Source: Candidatus Berkelbacteria bacterium
Lineage (GTDB): Bacteria > Patescibacteriota > UBA1384 > DTJR01
Assembly (NCBI GenBank): GCA_029865605.1
Contig: JAOUGE010000003.1
Location: 21,797 to 85,796, forward strand
Length of the DNA: 64,000 nucleotides
Reading direction: 5' to 3'
Positions 42,463 through 48,559 of this stretch are shown in pieces. A program made the position numbers and the translations under genes. Under the pieces are notes generated by a model, which searched no databases, had not been told where the DNA came from, and was given only the letters and a program-made list of their open reading frames with translations. Position 1 is the stretch's first letter; each line of letters opens with the position of its first letter.

Positions 42463-42975
42463 ATGGCAAAAATCGTGATGGTTATTGCACCGGAGAACTT
42501 TCGTGACGAAGAGTACTTCAAGCCGAAGGAAATCCTTGAGTCAAATGGGCACGAGGTCATCACTGCCTCAAAAGAGATCAATCAAATCAGGGGCGTCGGG
42601 GGTGGAACAGCCAAAGCAACAGTCAAGGTGATGGATTTAAGCCCTTATGATTATGAGGCAATAGTTTTTATTGGCGGGCAGGGCATGCAAGAATTTACTA
42701 ATGATTCCGACCTTAAGGCAGCAGCTAAAAAATTCTACGATGCAAAAAAACTGACAGCAGCAATCTGCATCGCTCCAGCGATTCTGGCCAACGCCGGAAT
42801 CCTCTCCGGCAAAAAAGTAACTTCTACCCCGAGTGCTATCGAAGTCCTTAAAAAAGCCGGCTCTAATCACACCGGAAGTCTAGTCGAAGTCGATGGCCAA
42901 ATCATTACCGCCAGCGGCCCCGACGCCGCCGAAGAACTTGGTAACAAAATTGCCGAGATATTAAAACCCAAATAA
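42463..42975 (+). CDS. DJ-1/PfpI family protein (class I glutamine amidotransferase-like)
   Basis: 170 aa; nucleophile elbow AICIAPAILANAG; strong SD GAGGAGG. Confidence 0.8.
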   Translation: MAKIVMVIAPENFRDEEYFKPKEILESNGHEVITASKEINQIRGVGGGTAKATVKVMDLSPYDYEAIVFIGGQGMQEFTNDSDLKAAAKKFYDAKKLTAAICIAPAILANAGILSGKKVTSTPSAIEVLKKAGSNHTGSLVEVDGQIITASGPDAAEELGNKIAEILKPK

Positions 42976-42995
42976 GAACGCTTTTCTAAAAGTCT

Positions 42996-43029
42996 GGGGG
43001 TTGACAAGCATCGGTCTTGTAATTATCAT
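42996..43029 (+). promoter_or_regulatory. putative strong sigma70-type promoter (GGGGG-TTGACA, 17-nt spacer, TATCAT)
   Basis: GGGGGTTGACAagcatcggtcttgtaatTATCAT; predicted TSS ~43036-43039. Confidence 0.55.
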
Positions 43030-43038
43030 CATTACAAG

Positions 43039-43163
43039 ATGAGAAACCTCAAACACCACAAGAAGCTGCAAAAGAGATCTCTCATCCAAGAGGCCATCAC
43101 GGCCTCGTTTTTGTATCAGGGCCCTTAAGGGTCCCAAACGCTCCCTGAGAGGGAGGTGAATCG
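43039..43163 (+). promoter_or_regulatory. 5' leader: leaderless 29-codon uORF (43039..43128) containing a terminator-like hairpin, followed by two GC hairpins, the last overlapping the SD of the downstream gene
   Basis: ATG at predicted TSS; uORF MRNLKHHKKLQKRSLIQEAITASFLYQGP; GAGGCCatcacGGCCTCgttttt (43090..43112); GGGCCCttaaGGGTCC (43118..43134); CTCCCtgagaGGGAGgtg (43141..43158) then ATG 43164. Confidence 0.35.
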
Positions 43164-43808
43164 ATGGACCAGCGGGTCGAAGAAGCGCTTAGGGCGCTAG
43201 AAGACAGCCTCCGACTCCACCTGGATCATTACACCTCGAATGAGATCGCACTCATTCATAGAGCAATGCACACCGCTGTCACCTGGCAAGGCACACGCAC
43301 GCGTCTCTCGGGCACACCGGCCTGGGCCCACACGCTCGCAGTAGGCAACGACCTAATCGCGCTCGGCGCCGATGCCGACCCGATCGTCGCCGGTTACCAT
43401 CACGACGACTTGGAGGACCTCGGCAAAACAGCCGAAGATCTGTGCACACTCTATGGCCCCGAAGCCGCCGGGCTGGTGGTTGCCCTGACCAAGACTGTCG
43501 AGGACACCTATATCGCCCAGCTGATACGCGAGGGACATGTCAACTGGTGGGTGCTGCTGATTAAGGCCGTTGACCGGCGCCACAACATTCGAACAGTCGC
43601 CGGCTTCAAACTCAACAAGCAGGAAGAGTATGCCCACGAAACCCGAGCTCTGGTCGCCGTCCTGCGCATTGGCAGCATCTGGGTCCCCGCCGAGTGGCAA
43701 GAGCGCTACCACGGCATCCTCGACGAATCGCAAGGGCTTGCCCGACAAGTCCTCGCCTCGATCGAAGCCGGGCGCCGTACGAACCCCACCCTCCCCCTCC
43801 TGTTCTAG
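43164..43808 (+). CDS. small alarmone hydrolase-like HD protein (RelA/SpoT-type (p)ppGpp hydrolase domain only); high-GC gene
   Basis: 214 aa; RLSGTPAWAHTLAVG (RxSGxPYxxH), GYHHDDLEDLG (HDxxED), LVVALTK, LIKAVDRRHNIRTV (KLADRxHNMRT); no synthetase domain; ~60% GC. Confidence 0.75.
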   Translation: MDQRVEEALRALEDSLRLHLDHYTSNEIALIHRAMHTAVTWQGTRTRLSGTPAWAHTLAVGNDLIALGADADPIVAGYHHDDLEDLGKTAEDLCTLYGPEAAGLVVALTKTVEDTYIAQLIREGHVNWWVLLIKAVDRRHNIRTVAGFKLNKQEEYAHETRALVAVLRIGSIWVPAEWQERYHGILDESQGLARQVLASIEAGRRTNPTLPLLF

Positions 43809-43953
43809 GCCTCGCTGCAGTGCCAGAAGGCAAAAGCAGCGGGGCCTTCGCGATTTTTAAAACCAAGGGGGTTGACAAGAAAGCTTTTTTGTCTTAAACA
43901 AGACTGCTATAATTATTTTGCTATGTTAAGTAGCTTGAGAGGAGGTGATCAAA

Positions 43954-44175
43954 ATGGACGAAGAAAAAGACGAAACAACGGACGAAACAACAGAAGAAAA
44001 AGACGATAAAGAGCCCACTGGTGTAGTTGATACAGCAGCCGATACAGAGGAGGAACCTGCTGTAGGAGGCGGTGCTTCTTGGGGTTCGGGCGGTACTGAT
44101 GACGACGATGGGGATGACGAGGGCGATGAAGAAGAAAAACCAGCTGGCGAGGAAGAGAAGAAAGAAAAGGAATAA
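43954..44175 (+). CDS. hyper-acidic low-complexity small protein (73 aa, D/E/T-rich)
   Basis: GGAGGTG SD 6 nt before ATG 43954 (track lists GTG 43945); MDEEKDETTDETTEEKDD...DDDDGDDEGDEEEK...; followed by a canonical terminator. Confidence 0.5.
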   Translation: MDEEKDETTDETTEEKDDKEPTGVVDTAADTEEEPAVGGGASWGSGGTDDDDGDDEGDEEEKPAGEEEKKEKE

Positions 44176-44211
44176 GGCAAAGAGTAAAATAACTGATTTA
44201 ACCATCAAAAA

Positions 44212-44235
44212 AGGGCCCCGAAAGGGCCCTTTTTT
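44212..44235 (+). terminator. Rho-independent terminator
   Basis: AAAAAAGGGCCCCgaaaGGGCCCTTTTTTG. Confidence 0.75.
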
Positions 44236-44268
44236 GCTAATTCTATCCTGTTTGGCTAAAATATATCT

Positions 44269-44592
44269 ATGACATACTCGCTACTCAGTCTATGGTTACT
44301 GGCAATTATTATATATATCAGGGCAAGCCTGCTCGCAACGGGAACCTGGACAAAAAAACTCTTTAAACAAGAAGGATTTCTTCTCTGGCAGAAACTATCC
44401 GCCGTTATTTTAACCCTTAGCGCAATTTATGCTCTTTTAGCAGGGGTGAAGTTTTTGGCAATTCCATTTGCCATAAATCTTATTTTCAATTTTCTTTTTT
44501 ACCTGCAACCGACACCACGAACAACAAAGCTGCTACTCAAGCTTTTTACTATTTCGAACCTAATCCTTTTAATAATTTATTTTCTGGGCTAA
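44269..44592 (+). CDS. hypothetical membrane protein (3 TM)
   Basis: 107-aa hydrophobic ORF. Confidence 0.45.
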   Translation: MTYSLLSLWLLAIIIYIRASLLATGTWTKKLFKQEGFLLWQKLSAVILTLSAIYALLAGVKFLAIPFAINLIFNFLFYLQPTPRTTKLLLKLFTISNLILLIIYFLG

Positions 44593-45222: not shown

Positions 45223-45254
45223 ATTTATGCTAAAATGTATTTGAAAGGAGGAAG

Positions 45255-46711: not shown

Positions 46712-46739
46712 AAAAATCCGAGTCCAGAAGCGCAAGGGC

Positions 46740-46767
46740 TTGACAAACCATAAACACTCCTTATAAT
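46740..46767 (+). promoter_or_regulatory. putative strong promoter (GGGC-TTGACA, 16-nt spacer, TATAAT)
   Basis: GGGCTTGACAaaccataaacactcctTATAAT upstream of 46817 gene. Confidence 0.5.
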
Positions 46768-46816
46768 CAGATTGTATAAGTAAAATAAAACCGAGATTAG
46801 AAAGGAGGTGGCGAAA

Positions 46817-47014
46817 ATGGCACACACAGTCAAGTCAAATAAGACCGGTGAGACATATTACTTGCACTCAAAAGACGTGACTTTGAGGGGAGGAAGAAAA
46901 CAAACTATTTACTACTTCGCAAGAAATGAGAGACCAAATTCATGCGATCTCCCGTCAGGATACAAAGTAATGGAAAACCCGAGAACGGGTCTACCCATGC
47001 TCAAAAAGGGCTAA
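46817..47014 (+). CDS. small basic hypothetical protein (66 aa)
   Basis: GGAGGTG SD then ATG 46817 (track uses GTG 46808); MAHTVKSNKTGETYYLHSKDVTLRGGRKQTIYYFARNERP...; consensus promoter and terminator. Confidence 0.45.
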   Translation: MAHTVKSNKTGETYYLHSKDVTLRGGRKQTIYYFARNERPNSCDLPSGYKVMENPRTGLPMLKKG

Positions 47015-47034
47015 AGAAATAAACGTTTTGGGAA

Positions 47035-47070
47035 AAACCCCCCCCACAGTAATTTAGAGGGGGGTTTTTC
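47035..47070 (+). terminator. Rho-independent terminator
   Basis: AAAAACCCCCCCCacagtaatttagaGGGGGGTTTTTCTTT. Confidence 0.7.
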
Positions 47071-47110
47071 TTTCAATTCAAAAATCTTTATGATATAGTC
47101 ATACAAGCTC

Positions 47111-48559
47111 ATGAGAAGAGTTGATAATGTTTTTACTTTCATTTTATTGCCGCTTGATGCTCTGGCGGTAATTTTAGCTTTTGTAGCGAGTTATTTTCTG
47201 CGCTCCAACGCGACCTTTCCCCCTGTAGTTTATATTTGGCCATTCGAGCAATATATAAAGCTAGCTATTTATATGATACCGGTTTGGCTAGTCGCCTTCT
47301 CTCTGGCCGGACTATACAACCCCCAAAGAAAAGGCATCAAGGAATTCGGCCAAATTATTGTCGGGGCAAGCCTAGGCACAATGGCTGTAGTACTCTGGGT
47401 CTTTCTGAACAGAAGCGACTTTTTTTCAAGACTAATTGTCTTCTACATTTGGGGTTCGGCTATAGTTTTGGTCACGGCCGAAAGGTCAATCCTAAGTCTG
47501 ATCAAATCAAACCTATACCTCCTCGGTCTTAAGAAAAAACGGCTCTTGATTATTGGGCAGCCGGATAAAATAACTCGATCCTTATTGGGAATAATAAAAG
47601 TAAAGCCTTCGCTAGGTTATGAAGCAGCTGGGATTCTATCAAACGAAAAAACAAATAATATAAAAGGGTTCGAGGGCCTTGAATACTTAGGTAAACCAGA
47701 CGAACTTGAAAATATATTGAGAAAAAACGGTATCAGCGAAACTATTTTAACCGACAAGGGTGTCAGAGATGAAGATCTTTTTTCATACATGAGAACTTGC
47801 CAAGAGAGAGGTGTTATATTCAAGGCCATTCCAAACCACGCCGAAGTCGGGGCAAGAACGCTGCGCTTTGACGCCTTTGGCGGACTCCCCATAATTGAGT
47901 TTAAAGGTACCCCGCTCGATGGTTGGGGAGCGGCCTATAAAAGAGTTATTGACTTTATCGGCTCAATCATAGCAATAATAATCCTTTCGCCACTTATGAC
48001 GTTAATTGCTCTTTTGGTAAAAACTACATCTAGAGGACCTGTTATCTATCGAAATACCAGGATCGGCAACAGGGGAAAATTTATAACCTTGAAATTCAGA
48101 ACGATGTATCTGGAGCACTGCACTGGCCCGCAATATGGTGGCTCGCGCGCCGAAAACTTCGAAAATAAATTAATTGCCGAAAGGAATATCAAAAAAGGCA
48201 GCGCCGTTTACAAAATTGCCAGAGACCCCAGAATTACCCCGATAGGAAGATTTTTAAGAAAAACGTCCCTTGACGAACTTCCCCAGTTCTTCAATGTCAT
48301 TAAAGGCAATATGAGCATAGTCGGACCCCGTCCCCACCAACCTAAAGAAGTAATACATTATACAAAAGAGCAGAGGAAACTACTAATGATAAAGCCCGGC
48401 ATTACCGGGCTAGCGCAAATTTCCGGTCGCAGCGACCTTAATTTTGACGAGGAAGCCGACCTTGATATATTTTATCTCGAGAACTGGTCCATCTGGCTCG
48501 ATCTTTTCATCATTATCAACACCCCCAAGGCAGTCTTTGGCAAAAGAGGAACGTACTAA
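47111..48559 (+). CDS. polyprenyl-phosphate hexose-1-phosphate transferase (WbaP/EpsB-like bacterial sugar transferase)
   Basis: 482 aa; N-terminal TMs, C-terminal Bac_transf domain (PRPHQP...GITGLAQISGRSDL...DLDIFYLENWS). Confidence 0.8.
   Translation: MRRVDNVFTFILLPLDALAVILAFVASYFLRSNATFPPVVYIWPFEQYIKLAIYMIPVWLVAFSLAGLYNPQRKGIKEFGQIIVGASLGTMAVVLWVFLNRSDFFSRLIVFYIWGSAIVLVTAERSILSLIKSNLYLLGLKKKRLLIIGQPDKITRSLLGIIKVKPSLGYEAAGILSNEKTNNIKGFEGLEYLGKPDELENILRKNGISETILTDKGVRDEDLFSYMRTCQERGVIFKAIPNHAEVGARTLRFDAFGGLPIIEFKGTPLDGWGAAYKRVIDFIGSIIAIIILSPLMTLIALLVKTTSRGPVIYRNTRIGNRGKFITLKFRTMYLEHCTGPQYGGSRAENFENKLIAERNIKKGSAVYKIARDPRITPIGRFLRKTSLDELPQFFNVIKGNMSIVGPRPHQPKEVIHYTKEQRKLLMIKPGITGLAQISGRSDLNFDEEADLDIFYLENWSIWLDLFIIINTPKAVFGKRGTY

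What the first reader, a model, noticed from the sequence alone, without database searches (positions are those of the whole stretch)
42996..43163. Leaderless upstream ORF plus three hairpins form an attenuator-like leader in front of the SAH gene
The consensus promoter (TTGACA, 17-nt spacer, TATCAT) puts the transcription start at or within 2-3 nt of an ATG that opens a 29-codon ORF (MRNLKHHKKLQKRSLIQEAITASFLYQGP). Inside that uORF lies GAGGCC-atcac-GGCCTC followed by GTTTTT, an intrinsic-terminator-like element. Downstream, GGGCCCttaaGGGTCC overlaps the uORF stop. CTCCCtgagaGGGAG then sequesters the first half of the GGGAGGTG SD of the SAH gene. Translation of the leaderless uORF would melt the terminator hairpin. 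This is a plausible translation-coupled attenuation or SD-occlusion switch.
Basis: seen in the sequence. Interest (0 to 1): 0.5.

Follow-up and report, generated by a model that had tools for sequence, protein, structure and literature searches.

The report
Conserved terminator-containing leader before alarmone hydrolase
In front of a small alarmone (ppGpp-type) hydrolase gene of an uncultured Berkelbacteria (CPR) bacterium sits a real, evolutionarily conserved 128-nt leader with its own promoter, a 5' hairpin, a transcription terminator and a ribosome-site-masking hairpin. It is most likely a premature-termination (attenuation) control, but how the terminator is overcome is inferred, not shown.

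Summary
These are the 11/12 promoter, a 29-codon ORF starting 2-3 nt after the predicted start site, a GC hairpin plus U-tract inside that ORF, a second hairpin, and a hairpin covering half of the strongest SD in the window.

The downstream gene is a single-domain RelA/SpoT-type hydrolase (SAH). Only two other homologues exist in roughly 15 billion proteins, and both carry the same leader. The leader diverges about 4-fold slower than synonymous sites, changes in its stems preserve pairing, and it moves with the gene into a different upstream context. It matches no Rfam family. No alternative antiterminator structure exists.

My best reading (about 0.4) is a pyrBI-type attenuator. A ribosome that starts at the 5'-proximal AUG follows RNA polymerase and prevents the terminator hairpin. 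If none loads, P1 locks the AUG and transcription stops. Neighbouring genes that look leaderless make this plausible. Against it, the peptide is unconstrained (pN/pS 0.9), the AUG sits in a helix, and the terminator is only 55 nt from the start.

Rivals are a factor- or ligand-dependent attenuator, a constitutive damper, and a small RNA. It is a new member of a known kind, of moderate interest.

The parts
43001..43006 (+). -35 box TTGACA, preceded by GGGGG. The motif GGGGGTTGACAAG is shared with the next promoter at about 43872.
   Evidence: Invariant in L002 and L003, while the 17-nt spacer diverges. The same motif is seen.
43024..43029 (+). -10 box TATCAT (TATTAT in L003).
43036..43037 (+). 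Predicted transcription start, an A 7-8 nt after the -10 box. Inferred, not mapped.
   Evidence: Inference from the spacing. The RNase P RNA gene in the window shows the same -10-to-5'-end spacing.
43039..43128 (+). Short ORF of 29 codons (26 in L002, 25 in L003) that starts 2-3 nt from the predicted 5' end and runs through the terminator.
43038..43086 (+). Helix P1: 43038-43044 pairs with 43080-43086, plus inner pairs. It encloses the uORF AUG and closes a 30-nt loop.
   Evidence: Includes an A-U to G-C compensatory change and a register shift in L003.
43051..43064 (+). Nearly invariant C/A-rich stretch CAAACACCNCAAGA(A) in the P1 loop.
   Evidence: 1 change in 14-15 nt between the window and L003, against 7 of 9 in the adjacent stretch.
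43090..43115 (+). Intrinsic terminator: stem GAGGCC/GGCCUC, 5-nt loop, then GUUUUUGUAU.
   Evidence: The stem and U-tract are invariant and the loop varies. It resembles this genome's bona fide terminator at 44206-44236.
43118..43135 (+). Hairpin P3 (A)GGGCCC-UUAA-GGGUCC(C). It has a terminator-like stem but no U-tract. Role unknown.
   Evidence: One pair is G-U, A-U or G-C in the three homologues.
43138..43157 (+). Hairpin P4, which masks 4-6 of the 8 SD nucleotides.
43152..43159 (+). Shine-Dalgarno GGAGGUGA, 4 nt before the ATG. It is the strongest SD among the gene starts of the window.
43164..43808 (+). Small alarmone hydrolase gene: 214 aa, a single RelA/SpoT-type HD domain, 61.6% GC.
   Evidence: dN/dS is about 0.2.
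43808..43862 (+). The SAH gene's own terminator: a 12-bp GC stem, then UUCGCGAUUUUU.
   Evidence: -33.9 kcal/mol. Conserved in L002 and L003.

Best explanation
The region 43001-43163 is a dedicated cis-regulatory leader of the SAH gene that works by premature transcription termination, with a second layer of SD masking.

Transcription starts at about 43036 from a strong sigma-70-type promoter. By default the nascent RNA folds P1 (which hides the AUG at 43039) and then the terminator hairpin (43090-43106). RNA polymerase is released in the U-tract near 43107-43115, so the SAH gene stays off.

Read-through happens when a 70S ribosome loads on the 5'-proximal AUG before the 3' strand of P1 (43080-43086) has been made. 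That ribosome keeps P1 open, follows the polymerase through codons 18-25 and physically prevents the terminator hairpin. It leaves the RNA just after the U-tract. This is the pyrBI type of attenuation and needs no antiterminator helix.

SAH output would then report how quickly ribosomes can start and elongate relative to polymerase speed. That is a sensible input for an enzyme that removes (p)ppGpp. Transcripts that read through are still damped by hairpin P4 over the SD.

What is shown: the elements exist, are conserved and preserve pairing; no RNA-only switch exists; the gene is an SAH.

What is inferred: the start site, termination in vivo, uORF translation, the kinetic competition and the physiological logic.

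I put about 0.8 on 'conserved terminator-containing regulatory leader' and about 0.4 on the ribosome-dependent mechanism specifically.
For: 1. The elements and their energies are confirmed.

2. The leader is present in the only two homologous loci. In L003 it follows a DinB gene instead of DJ-1, so it travels with the SAH gene.

3. There is purifying selection on the leader.
- The leader differs by 4.7% from L002 and 23% from L003.
- Synonymous divergence in the same comparisons is 0.13-0.2 and 1.2.
- The promoter spacer and the terminator loop vary, while the hexamers and stems do not.

4. Structure is preserved.
- 95.8% of pair cells are standard pairs, against 36-55% when partners are slid.
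- Three pairs changed on both sides.
- All 4 stem substitutions between the window and L002 keep pairing.

5. No antiterminator exists. The terminator has pair probability 0.83-1.0. Forcing its 5' arm to pair elsewhere costs 4-10 kcal/mol, and the resulting structures are not conserved.

6. The ORF spans the terminator in all three homologues. Stops lie 2-14 nt after the U-run, at three different positions.

7. The organism uses short GC-stem terminators and 5'-proximal, SD-less starts.
- Genes at 44269 and 47111 begin 32-40 nt after conserved terminators.
- Each has a conserved -10 box, 6 and 11 nt before the ATG, and no SD.
- The second shares the context CAUACAAG..AUGAGAA with the uORF.

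8. Literature.
- A ribosome following the polymerase suppresses the pyrL terminator (PMC5021804, citing Roland et al. 1988).
- Terminators at or just after a translated stop codon are repressed (PMC4824070).
- CA-rich sequence downstream of the AUG enhances leaderless translation (PMC9031893, citing Martin-Farmer and Janssen 1999).
- 5'-terminal uAUGs on SD-led mRNAs are translated and can affect the downstream gene (PMC4965119).
Against: - The peptide is not constrained. pN/pS is 0.9 between the window and L003, and both changes relative to L002 are non-synonymous. Changes hit codon position 2 most often (6/9/5 by my own hand count on the alignment).
- The frame staying open is not informative. 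A second frame is also open, and I estimate about a 0.3 chance of no stop arising.
- The AUG is inside conserved helix P1 (about -9 kcal/mol).
- The predicted start leaves a 2-3-nt leader. In Caulobacter both structure and a short leader cut leaderless initiation several-fold (PMC8459731).
- The terminator lies only 55-77 nt from the 5' end. In E. coli, terminators in the first 100 bp of an ORF work almost unhindered unless a pause synchronises the ribosome (PMC4824070). No pause signal was identified here.
- Only three sequences exist, so covariation is underpowered: 42 of 500 shuffles reach the observed score.
- There are no transcript or ribosome data for this uncultured organism.
Confidence: 0.4

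Rival explanations
1. It is a factor- or ligand-dependent attenuator that does not use the uORF. P1 with its invariant C/A-rich loop would be the binding site of a protein or small molecule, for example an alarmone or nucleotide. Binding would change terminator efficiency, and the AUG would merely be part of the helix.
For: P1 is kept by a compensatory change and a register shift. The unpaired stretch CAAACACCNCAAGAA is almost invariant although the encoded peptide is not constrained. Nucleotide-level constraint dominates: uORF 'synonymous' divergence is 0.28, against 1.2 in the SAH gene. A sensor of the enzyme's substrate would be logical.
Against: There is no Rfam match even at E<=10, which covers the ppGpp/PRPP ykkC subtypes, PyrR sites and T-box. 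There is no mutually exclusive structure linking P1 to the terminator. The putative aptamer would be a single hairpin, which is simpler than known riboswitch aptamers. No candidate binding protein is encoded next to it.
Confidence: 0.25
2. There is no conditional switch. The terminator is a constitutive, leaky damper and an insulator against read-through from the upstream operon. P1 is a 5'-end stabiliser and P4 simply lowers translation, which together keep a potentially harmful hydrolase at a low fixed level.
For: No terminator separates the upstream DJ-1 or DinB gene from the leader. In L003 the DinB stop even overlaps the -35 box, so this hairpin is the first terminator those transcripts meet. 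All four helices are local and independently stable. The terminator is short (6 bp, U5) and could be partly leaky.
Against: A very strong promoter and the strongest SD in the window, combined with a terminator and an SD mask, is an odd way to obtain low constitutive expression. The invariant unpaired C/A stretch and the conserved position of the AUG are left unexplained.
Confidence: 0.2
3. The promoter-to-terminator unit (about 43036-43115, roughly 78 nt) is primarily a small RNA gene. Its C/A-rich, anti-SD-like loop (CCUC, CACC) would act in trans, and its position before the SAH gene would be secondary.
For: It has its own strong promoter and terminator and a stable 5' hairpin presenting a conserved single-stranded loop.
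Against: The 57 nt between the terminator and the SAH start hold no promoter-like site, so the SAH gene would have no promoter of its own. The unit and the gene stay together in a different context in L003. P3 and P4 downstream are equally conserved. A covariance model finds no second copy in the DNA held, including the 64-kb window.
Confidence: 0.1

Closest known systems
E. coli pyrBI (pyrL) attenuator
   Same: A leader ORF runs through an intrinsic terminator located before the structural gene. There is no antiterminator helix. Read-through depends on a ribosome close behind the polymerase physically preventing the hairpin (PMC5021804; PMC4824070).
   Different: pyrL has an SD-led start and UTP-sensitive pause sites that synchronise the ribosome with the polymerase. 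Here the ORF would start 2-3 nt from the 5' end without an SD, its AUG is inside a conserved helix, no pause element is identified, and the regulated gene is an alarmone hydrolase. There is no sequence relationship.
Mycobacterial leaderless short-ORF attenuators (Cys 'ribulon', bioRxiv 10.1101/834739)
   Same: [quoted passage not shown]
   Different: Those act on translation through ribosomes stalled in a poly-Cys tract. Here there is no conserved codon run (HH in the window becomes HL in L003), the main element is a transcription terminator, and the SD-masking hairpin lies 10-25 nt beyond the uORF stop.
Classical trp/his/leu leader-peptide attenuators
   Same: Promoter-proximal leader ORF plus an intrinsic terminator before the structural gene.
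   Different: These require regulatory codon runs and competing 1:2, 2:3 and 3:4 helices. Neither feature is present here.
5'-terminal uAUG uORFs on SD-led E. coli mRNAs (PMC4965119)
   Same: The mRNA carries both a 5'-terminal AUG-initiated short ORF and a canonical SD-led gene. Some of these uORFs affect downstream expression.
   Different: No embedded terminator is described for those. Their function is largely unknown.
ppGpp riboswitch (ykkC subtype 2a) and other Rfam cis-regulators
   Same: A 5' leader with an intrinsic-terminator expression platform, and a functional theme of alarmone metabolism.
   Different: There is no match to any of the 4227 Rfam models at E<=10 in the leader, no multi-helix aptamer and no alternative pairing.

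Membership tests
pyrBI-type ribosome-mediated attenuator | An intrinsic terminator lies between the promoter and the structural gene. | tested here: met
   GC stem plus U-tract at 43090-43115, conserved in 3 of 3 homologues. It is of the same type as this genome's gene-end terminators. Activity in vivo was not tested.
pyrBI-type ribosome-mediated attenuator | The leader ORF extends through or to the terminator, so a translating ribosome covers the hairpin. | tested here: met
   The ORF spans the hairpin in all three homologues, with stops 2-14 nt after the U-run.
pyrBI-type ribosome-mediated attenuator | No antiterminator helix; the terminator is the only stable fold. | tested here: met
   Constrained folding.
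pyrBI-type ribosome-mediated attenuator | The leader ORF is actually translated. | not testable with these tools
   Indirect evidence only. SD-less 5'-proximal starts occur at neighbouring genes. Against this, the AUG lies in P1 and the peptide is unconstrained.
pyrBI-type ribosome-mediated attenuator | Polymerase pause sites couple the ribosome to the polymerase. | not tested
   No pause prediction was run. P1 could act as a pause hairpin, but that is speculation.
trp/his-type leader-peptide attenuator | A run of regulatory codons conserved in the leader peptide. | tested here: not met
   HH in the window becomes HL in L003, and pN/pS is 0.9.
trp/his-type leader-peptide attenuator | Mutually exclusive antiterminator and terminator helices. 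| tested here: not met
Riboswitch or other curated cis-regulatory RNA (Rfam 15, including ykkC/ppGpp, PRPP, PyrR site, T-box) | A match to a family covariance model. | tested here: not met
   Nothing reaches the gathering score in the window apart from RNase P and 2 tRNAs. In the leader only chance-level hits appear at E 0.4-5.5, all on the opposite strand.
Riboswitch (generic) | An aptamer whose folding competes with the expression platform. | tested here: not met
   P1 and the terminator do not share nucleotides, and no conserved alternative exists.
Mycobacterial leaderless sORF attenuator | The transcript begins exactly with the sORF start codon. | tested here: inconclusive
   The -10 box ends 9 nt before the AUG, so the usual spacing predicts a 2-3-nt leader. 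The TSS is not mapped.
Mycobacterial leaderless sORF attenuator | A stalled ribosome in the sORF opens the duplex that masks the downstream RBS. | tested here: not met
   P4 starts 10 nt (window) to about 25 nt (L003) beyond the uORF stop, outside a ribosome footprint in two of the three homologues.
Small alarmone hydrolase (RSH hydrolase-only protein), for the downstream gene | A single RelA/SpoT-type HD domain with the catalytic motifs and no synthetase domain. | tested here: met
   Pfam HD_4 scores 43.8 bits against a cut-off of 27.2. TIGR00691 matches the N-terminal part at E 6e-18. The best PDB match is the mycobacterial Rel hydrolase domain at E 1e-16, with R-x-SG-x-P..H, HHDDLED, LTK and DRRHN aligned. 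The protein is 214 aa. Enzyme activity was not tested.

The most novel reading that the evidence does not exclude
The leader is a previously undescribed 'initiation-race' attenuator. A leaderless or near-leaderless short ORF, a helix that locks its AUG if no ribosome has loaded in time, and a terminator embedded in the ORF together convert the cell's capacity for 70S initiation and transcription-translation coupling into the level of an alarmone hydrolase. These are quantities that (p)ppGpp itself changes, so the arrangement would close a feedback loop on the stringent response in a CPR bacterium. Alternatively, P1 with its invariant C/A loop is a new minimal sensor for an alarmone or nucleotide.
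Probability: 0.3. Interest if true: 0.6.

Novelty: new member of a known kind. Interest (0 to 1): 0.4.

Why it matters
How small alarmone hydrolases are regulated is poorly understood. In bacteria their physiological roles are described as poorly characterised except as antitoxins (PMC9765508). My literature searches found no paper describing a cis-regulatory leader for one.

Gene regulation in CPR bacteria is almost unstudied because they are uncultured. A conserved terminator-containing leader shows that classical attenuation logic operates there. It also gives a compact (about 130 nt), testable element that can be moved into a heterologous host.

If the ribosome-race reading is right, it would link translation-initiation capacity directly to alarmone removal. 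If it is wrong, the element is still a clean example of a lineage-specific attenuator.

The practical limit is the tiny family: only three sequences are known.

Tried and rejected
- **Known RNA families.** The Rfam gathering scan of the whole window and the permissive scan of 42900-43300 gave nothing relevant. The segment UCCAAGAGGCC resembles the PyrR binding motif as I recall it, but no PyrR model match appeared, so I rejected that.
- **More homologues by protein.** Word-indexed searches with the single protein and with the 3-sequence profile found only P0002 (84%) and P0003 (64%), plus two 31%-identical 314-aa proteins. A full HMMER search of 1.84 billion representatives found the family's own cluster, then a gap to E 8e-31.
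- **More leaders by DNA pattern.**
  - The JGI metagenome scan found only L004, which shares the L003 leader and flanking sequence, plus 2 chance hits in coding regions.
  - IMG/VR gave 0 hits.
  - GTDB genomes gave 8 hits, all in unrelated phyla, which I judged to be chance from the record titles alone and did not inspect.
  - A protein-based viral scan found no relative.
- **Paralogous leader copies.** Covariance model R1 found only the four known copies.
- **Antiterminator search.** Constrained folding gave none. Long-range pairing of the C/A loop with the SD region, checked by eye, gives only 4 bp and is not conserved.
- **uORF as a conserved small protein.** Rejected: pN/pS is 0.9 and there is no Pfam hit.
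- **Leader conservation as mere regional conservation.** Checked against other intergenic regions of the same genome pair. Some are 22-41% identical and others 74-91%. Of the three high-identity spacers, the two I aligned turn out to be promoters, SDs and terminators. The third (45223-45254) appears in the alignment, but I did not work out what it holds. Conservation in these genomes therefore seems to mark functional signals.
- **SAH as a defence or toxSAS antitoxin module.** There is no PADLOC hit and no synthetase in the window. Only the distant homologue P0004 sits next to a SAS gene.

Full report
**1. What is in the sequence**

Reading 42700-43500 confirms every element in the finding.
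- TTGACA (43001-43006), 17 nt, TATCAT (43024-43029) matches the consensus at 11 of 12 positions. It is the best site in the 5-kb scan. My own scan of the 64 kb found only three other sites scoring 11/12 or better.
- The ATG at 43039 lies 9 nt after the -10 box. With the usual 7-8-nt spacing the start would be A43036 or A43037, leaving a 2-3-nt leader. This is inference.
- The ORF 43039-43128 encodes the quoted 29 residues.
- GAGGCC-AUCAC-GGCCUC (43090-43106) followed by GUUUUUGUAU folds at -11.7 kcal/mol (z = -3.3).
- GGGCCC-UUAA-GGGUCC (43119-43134) folds at -10.3 kcal/mol (z = -2.6).
- CUCCCU-GAG-AGGGAG (43141-43155) folds at -8.7 kcal/mol (z = -1.8), all.
- The whole leader folds at -41.3 kcal/mol (z = -2.05). 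The first 80 nt give z = -3.26, with 0 of 200 shuffles as stable.

GAUGAGA (43038-43044) pairs with UCUCAUC (43080-43086). I call this helix P1. It buries the uORF AUG and closes a 30-nt loop.

**2. The gene behind it**

ORF 43164-43808 is a 214-aa single-domain protein.
- It matches Pfam HD_4 at 43.8 bits, against a cut-off of 27.2.
- It matches the N-terminal part of TIGR00691 spoT_relA.
- Its best solved-structure matches are the hydrolase domains of mycobacterial Rel (E 1e-16), with the R-x-SG-x-P..H, HHDDLED, LTK and DRRHN motifs aligned.

'SAH' is therefore a fair label.

The source is annotated as a Candidatus Berkelbacteria MAG. The gene is 61.6% GC (GC3 73%) in a 43% GC genome. It evolves under purifying selection, with dN/dS about 0.2.

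The family is tiny.
- The word-indexed searches found two relatives at 84% and 64% identity.
- A full HMMER pass over 1.84 billion representatives found only the family's own cluster before a gap to E 8e-31.

**3. The leader in related loci**

Both relatives were located: L002 and L003. L004 shares the same leader and flanking sequence as L003. Both carry the leader.
- Conserved: the -35 and -10 hexamers (while the spacer diverges), the block CATTACAAGATGAGAA, CAAACACCNCAAGAA, the terminator stem and U-tract (the loop differs), and both downstream hairpins.
- In L003 a DinB-family gene lies directly upstream and its stop codon overlaps the -35 box. The leader therefore belongs to the SAH gene and not to the DJ-1 gene upstream of it in the window.

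Rates:
- Leader divergence is 4.7% (window vs L002) and 23% (window vs L003).
- Synonymous divergence of neighbouring genes is 0.13-0.2 and about 1.2 in the same comparisons. This is roughly four-fold slower than neutral.

As a control I compared other intergenic regions between the window and L004.
- Some are 22-41% identical and others 74-91%.
- Of the three high-identity spacers, the two I aligned turn out to be promoters (again GGGGGTTGACAAG ... TATAAT), strong SD modules and canonical terminators.
- The third (45223-45254) appears in the alignment, but I did not work out what it holds.

So in this lineage conservation seems to mark real signals. The organism demonstrably uses sigma-70-type promoters and terminators with a short GC stem and a U5-6 run. 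An example is AAAAAAGGGCCCCGAAAGGGCCCUUUUUU at 44206-44236.

**4. Structure support**

RNAalifold recovers four helices. Counting pairs on that structure:
- 95.8% of cells are standard pairs, against 36-55% when the partners are slid.
- Three pairs changed on both sides, including an A-U to G-C change in P1. One pair in P3 is G-U, A-U or G-C in the three homologues.
- Only 3 sequences are available, and 42 of 500 shuffles reach the observed score. This is suggestive, not proof.
- Of the six substitutions between the window and L002, four lie in stems and all four preserve or improve pairing.

**5. Is there an RNA switch?**

No. In all three homologues the terminator is the dominant fold, with pair probability 0.83-1.0. 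Forcing its 5' arm to pair upstream, or its 3' arm to pair downstream, costs 4-10 kcal/mol and gives different structures in each homologue.

Rfam gives no match in the leader even at E<=10. A covariance model built from the three leaders finds no further copy in the window or in any fetched locus. DNA-pattern scans of JGI metagenomes, IMG/VR and GTDB genomes found no new leader.

**6. Is the uORF real?**

For:
- The AUG is invariant and sits 2-3 nt from the predicted start.
- The ORF crosses the terminator in all three homologues. It stops 2-14 nt after the U-run, at three different positions.
- The sequence after the AUG is C/A-rich, a known enhancer of leaderless translation (PMC9031893).
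- The organism appears to start translation at 5'-proximal, SD-less AUGs.
  - Most genes in the window lack an SD.
  - The genes at 44269 and 47111 begin 32-40 nt after conserved terminators, with conserved -10 boxes 6 and 11 nt before the ATG.
  - The second has the context CAUACAAGCUC-AUGAGAAG, close to the uORF's CAUUACAAG-AUGAGAAA.

Against:
- The peptide is unconstrained. pN/pS is 0.9. Differences by codon position are 6/9/5 by my own hand count on the alignment, since the script line that would have printed them did not run. Both L002 changes are non-synonymous.
- Another frame is equally open, so openness carries little weight.
- The AUG is inside P1, and structure and short leaders both depress leaderless initiation in Caulobacter (PMC8459731).
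- In E. coli, terminators within the first 100 bp of an ORF escape ribosome repression unless a pause couples the two machines (PMC4824070).

**7. Mechanism**

A strong promoter, a conserved terminator and no promoter-like site in the 57 nt before the SAH start mean that SAH expression requires read-through. With no antiterminator, something in trans must suppress the hairpin.

The most economical candidate is the ribosome, as at pyrBI (PMC5021804). I propose a race.
- If a ribosome loads on the nascent AUG before 43080-43086 is transcribed, it keeps P1 open, follows the polymerase and blocks the terminator.
- If no ribosome loads in time, P1 locks the AUG and transcription ends near 43110.

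P4 then damps translation of read-through transcripts. Because (p)ppGpp changes both polymerase pace and translation in E. coli (PMC13192712), such a device could feed back on alarmone level. This last step is speculation.

Confidence is about 0.8 that this is a conserved terminator-based regulatory leader, and about 0.4 for the ribosome-dependent version. The rivals are:
- a factor- or ligand-dependent attenuator using P1 and its invariant loop (0.25);
- a constitutive damper and insulator (0.2);
- a small RNA (0.1).

**8. Comparison and novelty**

The element works most like the pyrBI attenuator. It shares the leaderless-sORF theme with the mycobacterial Cys attenuators (bioRxiv 10.1101/834739) and the 5'-uAUG class of E. 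coli (PMC4965119). It is not homologous to any of them. It also fails the defining tests of trp/his-type attenuators and of curated riboswitch families.

My literature searches found no paper describing a leader for an SAH gene. I file it as a new member of a known kind, a terminator-based attenuator. A more novel reading, an initiation-race sensor or a minimal alarmone sensor, is not excluded (probability about 0.3).

Interest is moderate at 0.4. The element is real, conserved and testable, but the family has three members and the organism is uncultured.

Noticed in passing
L002:1510-1612 and L002:2487-2588: A ~100-nt MITE-like element with terminal inverted repeats CCCCTTACTAAA/TTTAGTAAGGGG is inserted exactly at GGGGGTTGAC of two neighbouring promoters, the SAH leader promoter and the next gene's promoter. 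The two copies are in opposite orientations, and each insertion regenerates the -35 box. The element is absent from the window.
   Followed up: partly
window 44206-44271 and 47033-47113: Two genes (107 aa at 44269, 482 aa at 47111) start 32-40 nt after conserved intrinsic terminators. Each has a conserved -10 box, 6 and 11 nt before the ATG, and no SD, so their mRNAs are probably leaderless or near-leaderless. Most genes in the window lack an SD.
   Followed up: partly
window 43164-43808: The SAH gene is 61.6% GC (GC3 73%) in a 43% GC genome. The anomaly persists in all three homologues (57.5-61.6% GC) although synonymous sites are saturated (dS about 1.2). It is therefore not simply an un-ameliorated recent transfer.
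   Followed up: partly
window 43350-43613 (SAH codons 63-150): Between the window and L002 this tract has dS 1.5, against 0.16-0.2 in the flanking parts of the same gene. With dN/dS of 0.17 it looks like a recombination tract from an unsampled divergent allele rather than positive selection.
   Followed up: partly
window 46739-47015: A perfect 12/12 promoter (TTGACA-16-TATAAT) and the whole 5' UTR, promoter spacer included, are about 97% identical between the window and L004. They precede a 65-aa ORF (46818-47015) with a strong SD. This is more conserved than the coding regions around it.
   Followed up: no
L015:1522-3445 (also L016-L018): The nearest homologue outside the family (P0004, 31% identity, 314 aa) directly follows a 324-aa RelA_SpoT synthetase gene. 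This is a toxSAS/antitoxin-like pair. The window SAH has no synthetase within the 64 kb.
   Followed up: partly
L003:1299-2525: In this relative a DinB/IMS (Y-family polymerase) gene lies between DJ-1 and the SAH leader. Its TGA stop overlaps the -35 TTGACA of the leader promoter.
   Followed up: no
window 43872-44175: The next gene encodes a 73-aa, extremely acidic low-complexity protein with no family match. It is driven by a promoter with the same GGGGGTTGACAAG motif and the same UGAGAGGAGGUGAU ribosome-binding module as the SAH gene, and it is kept next to the SAH gene in all homologues.
   Followed up: no
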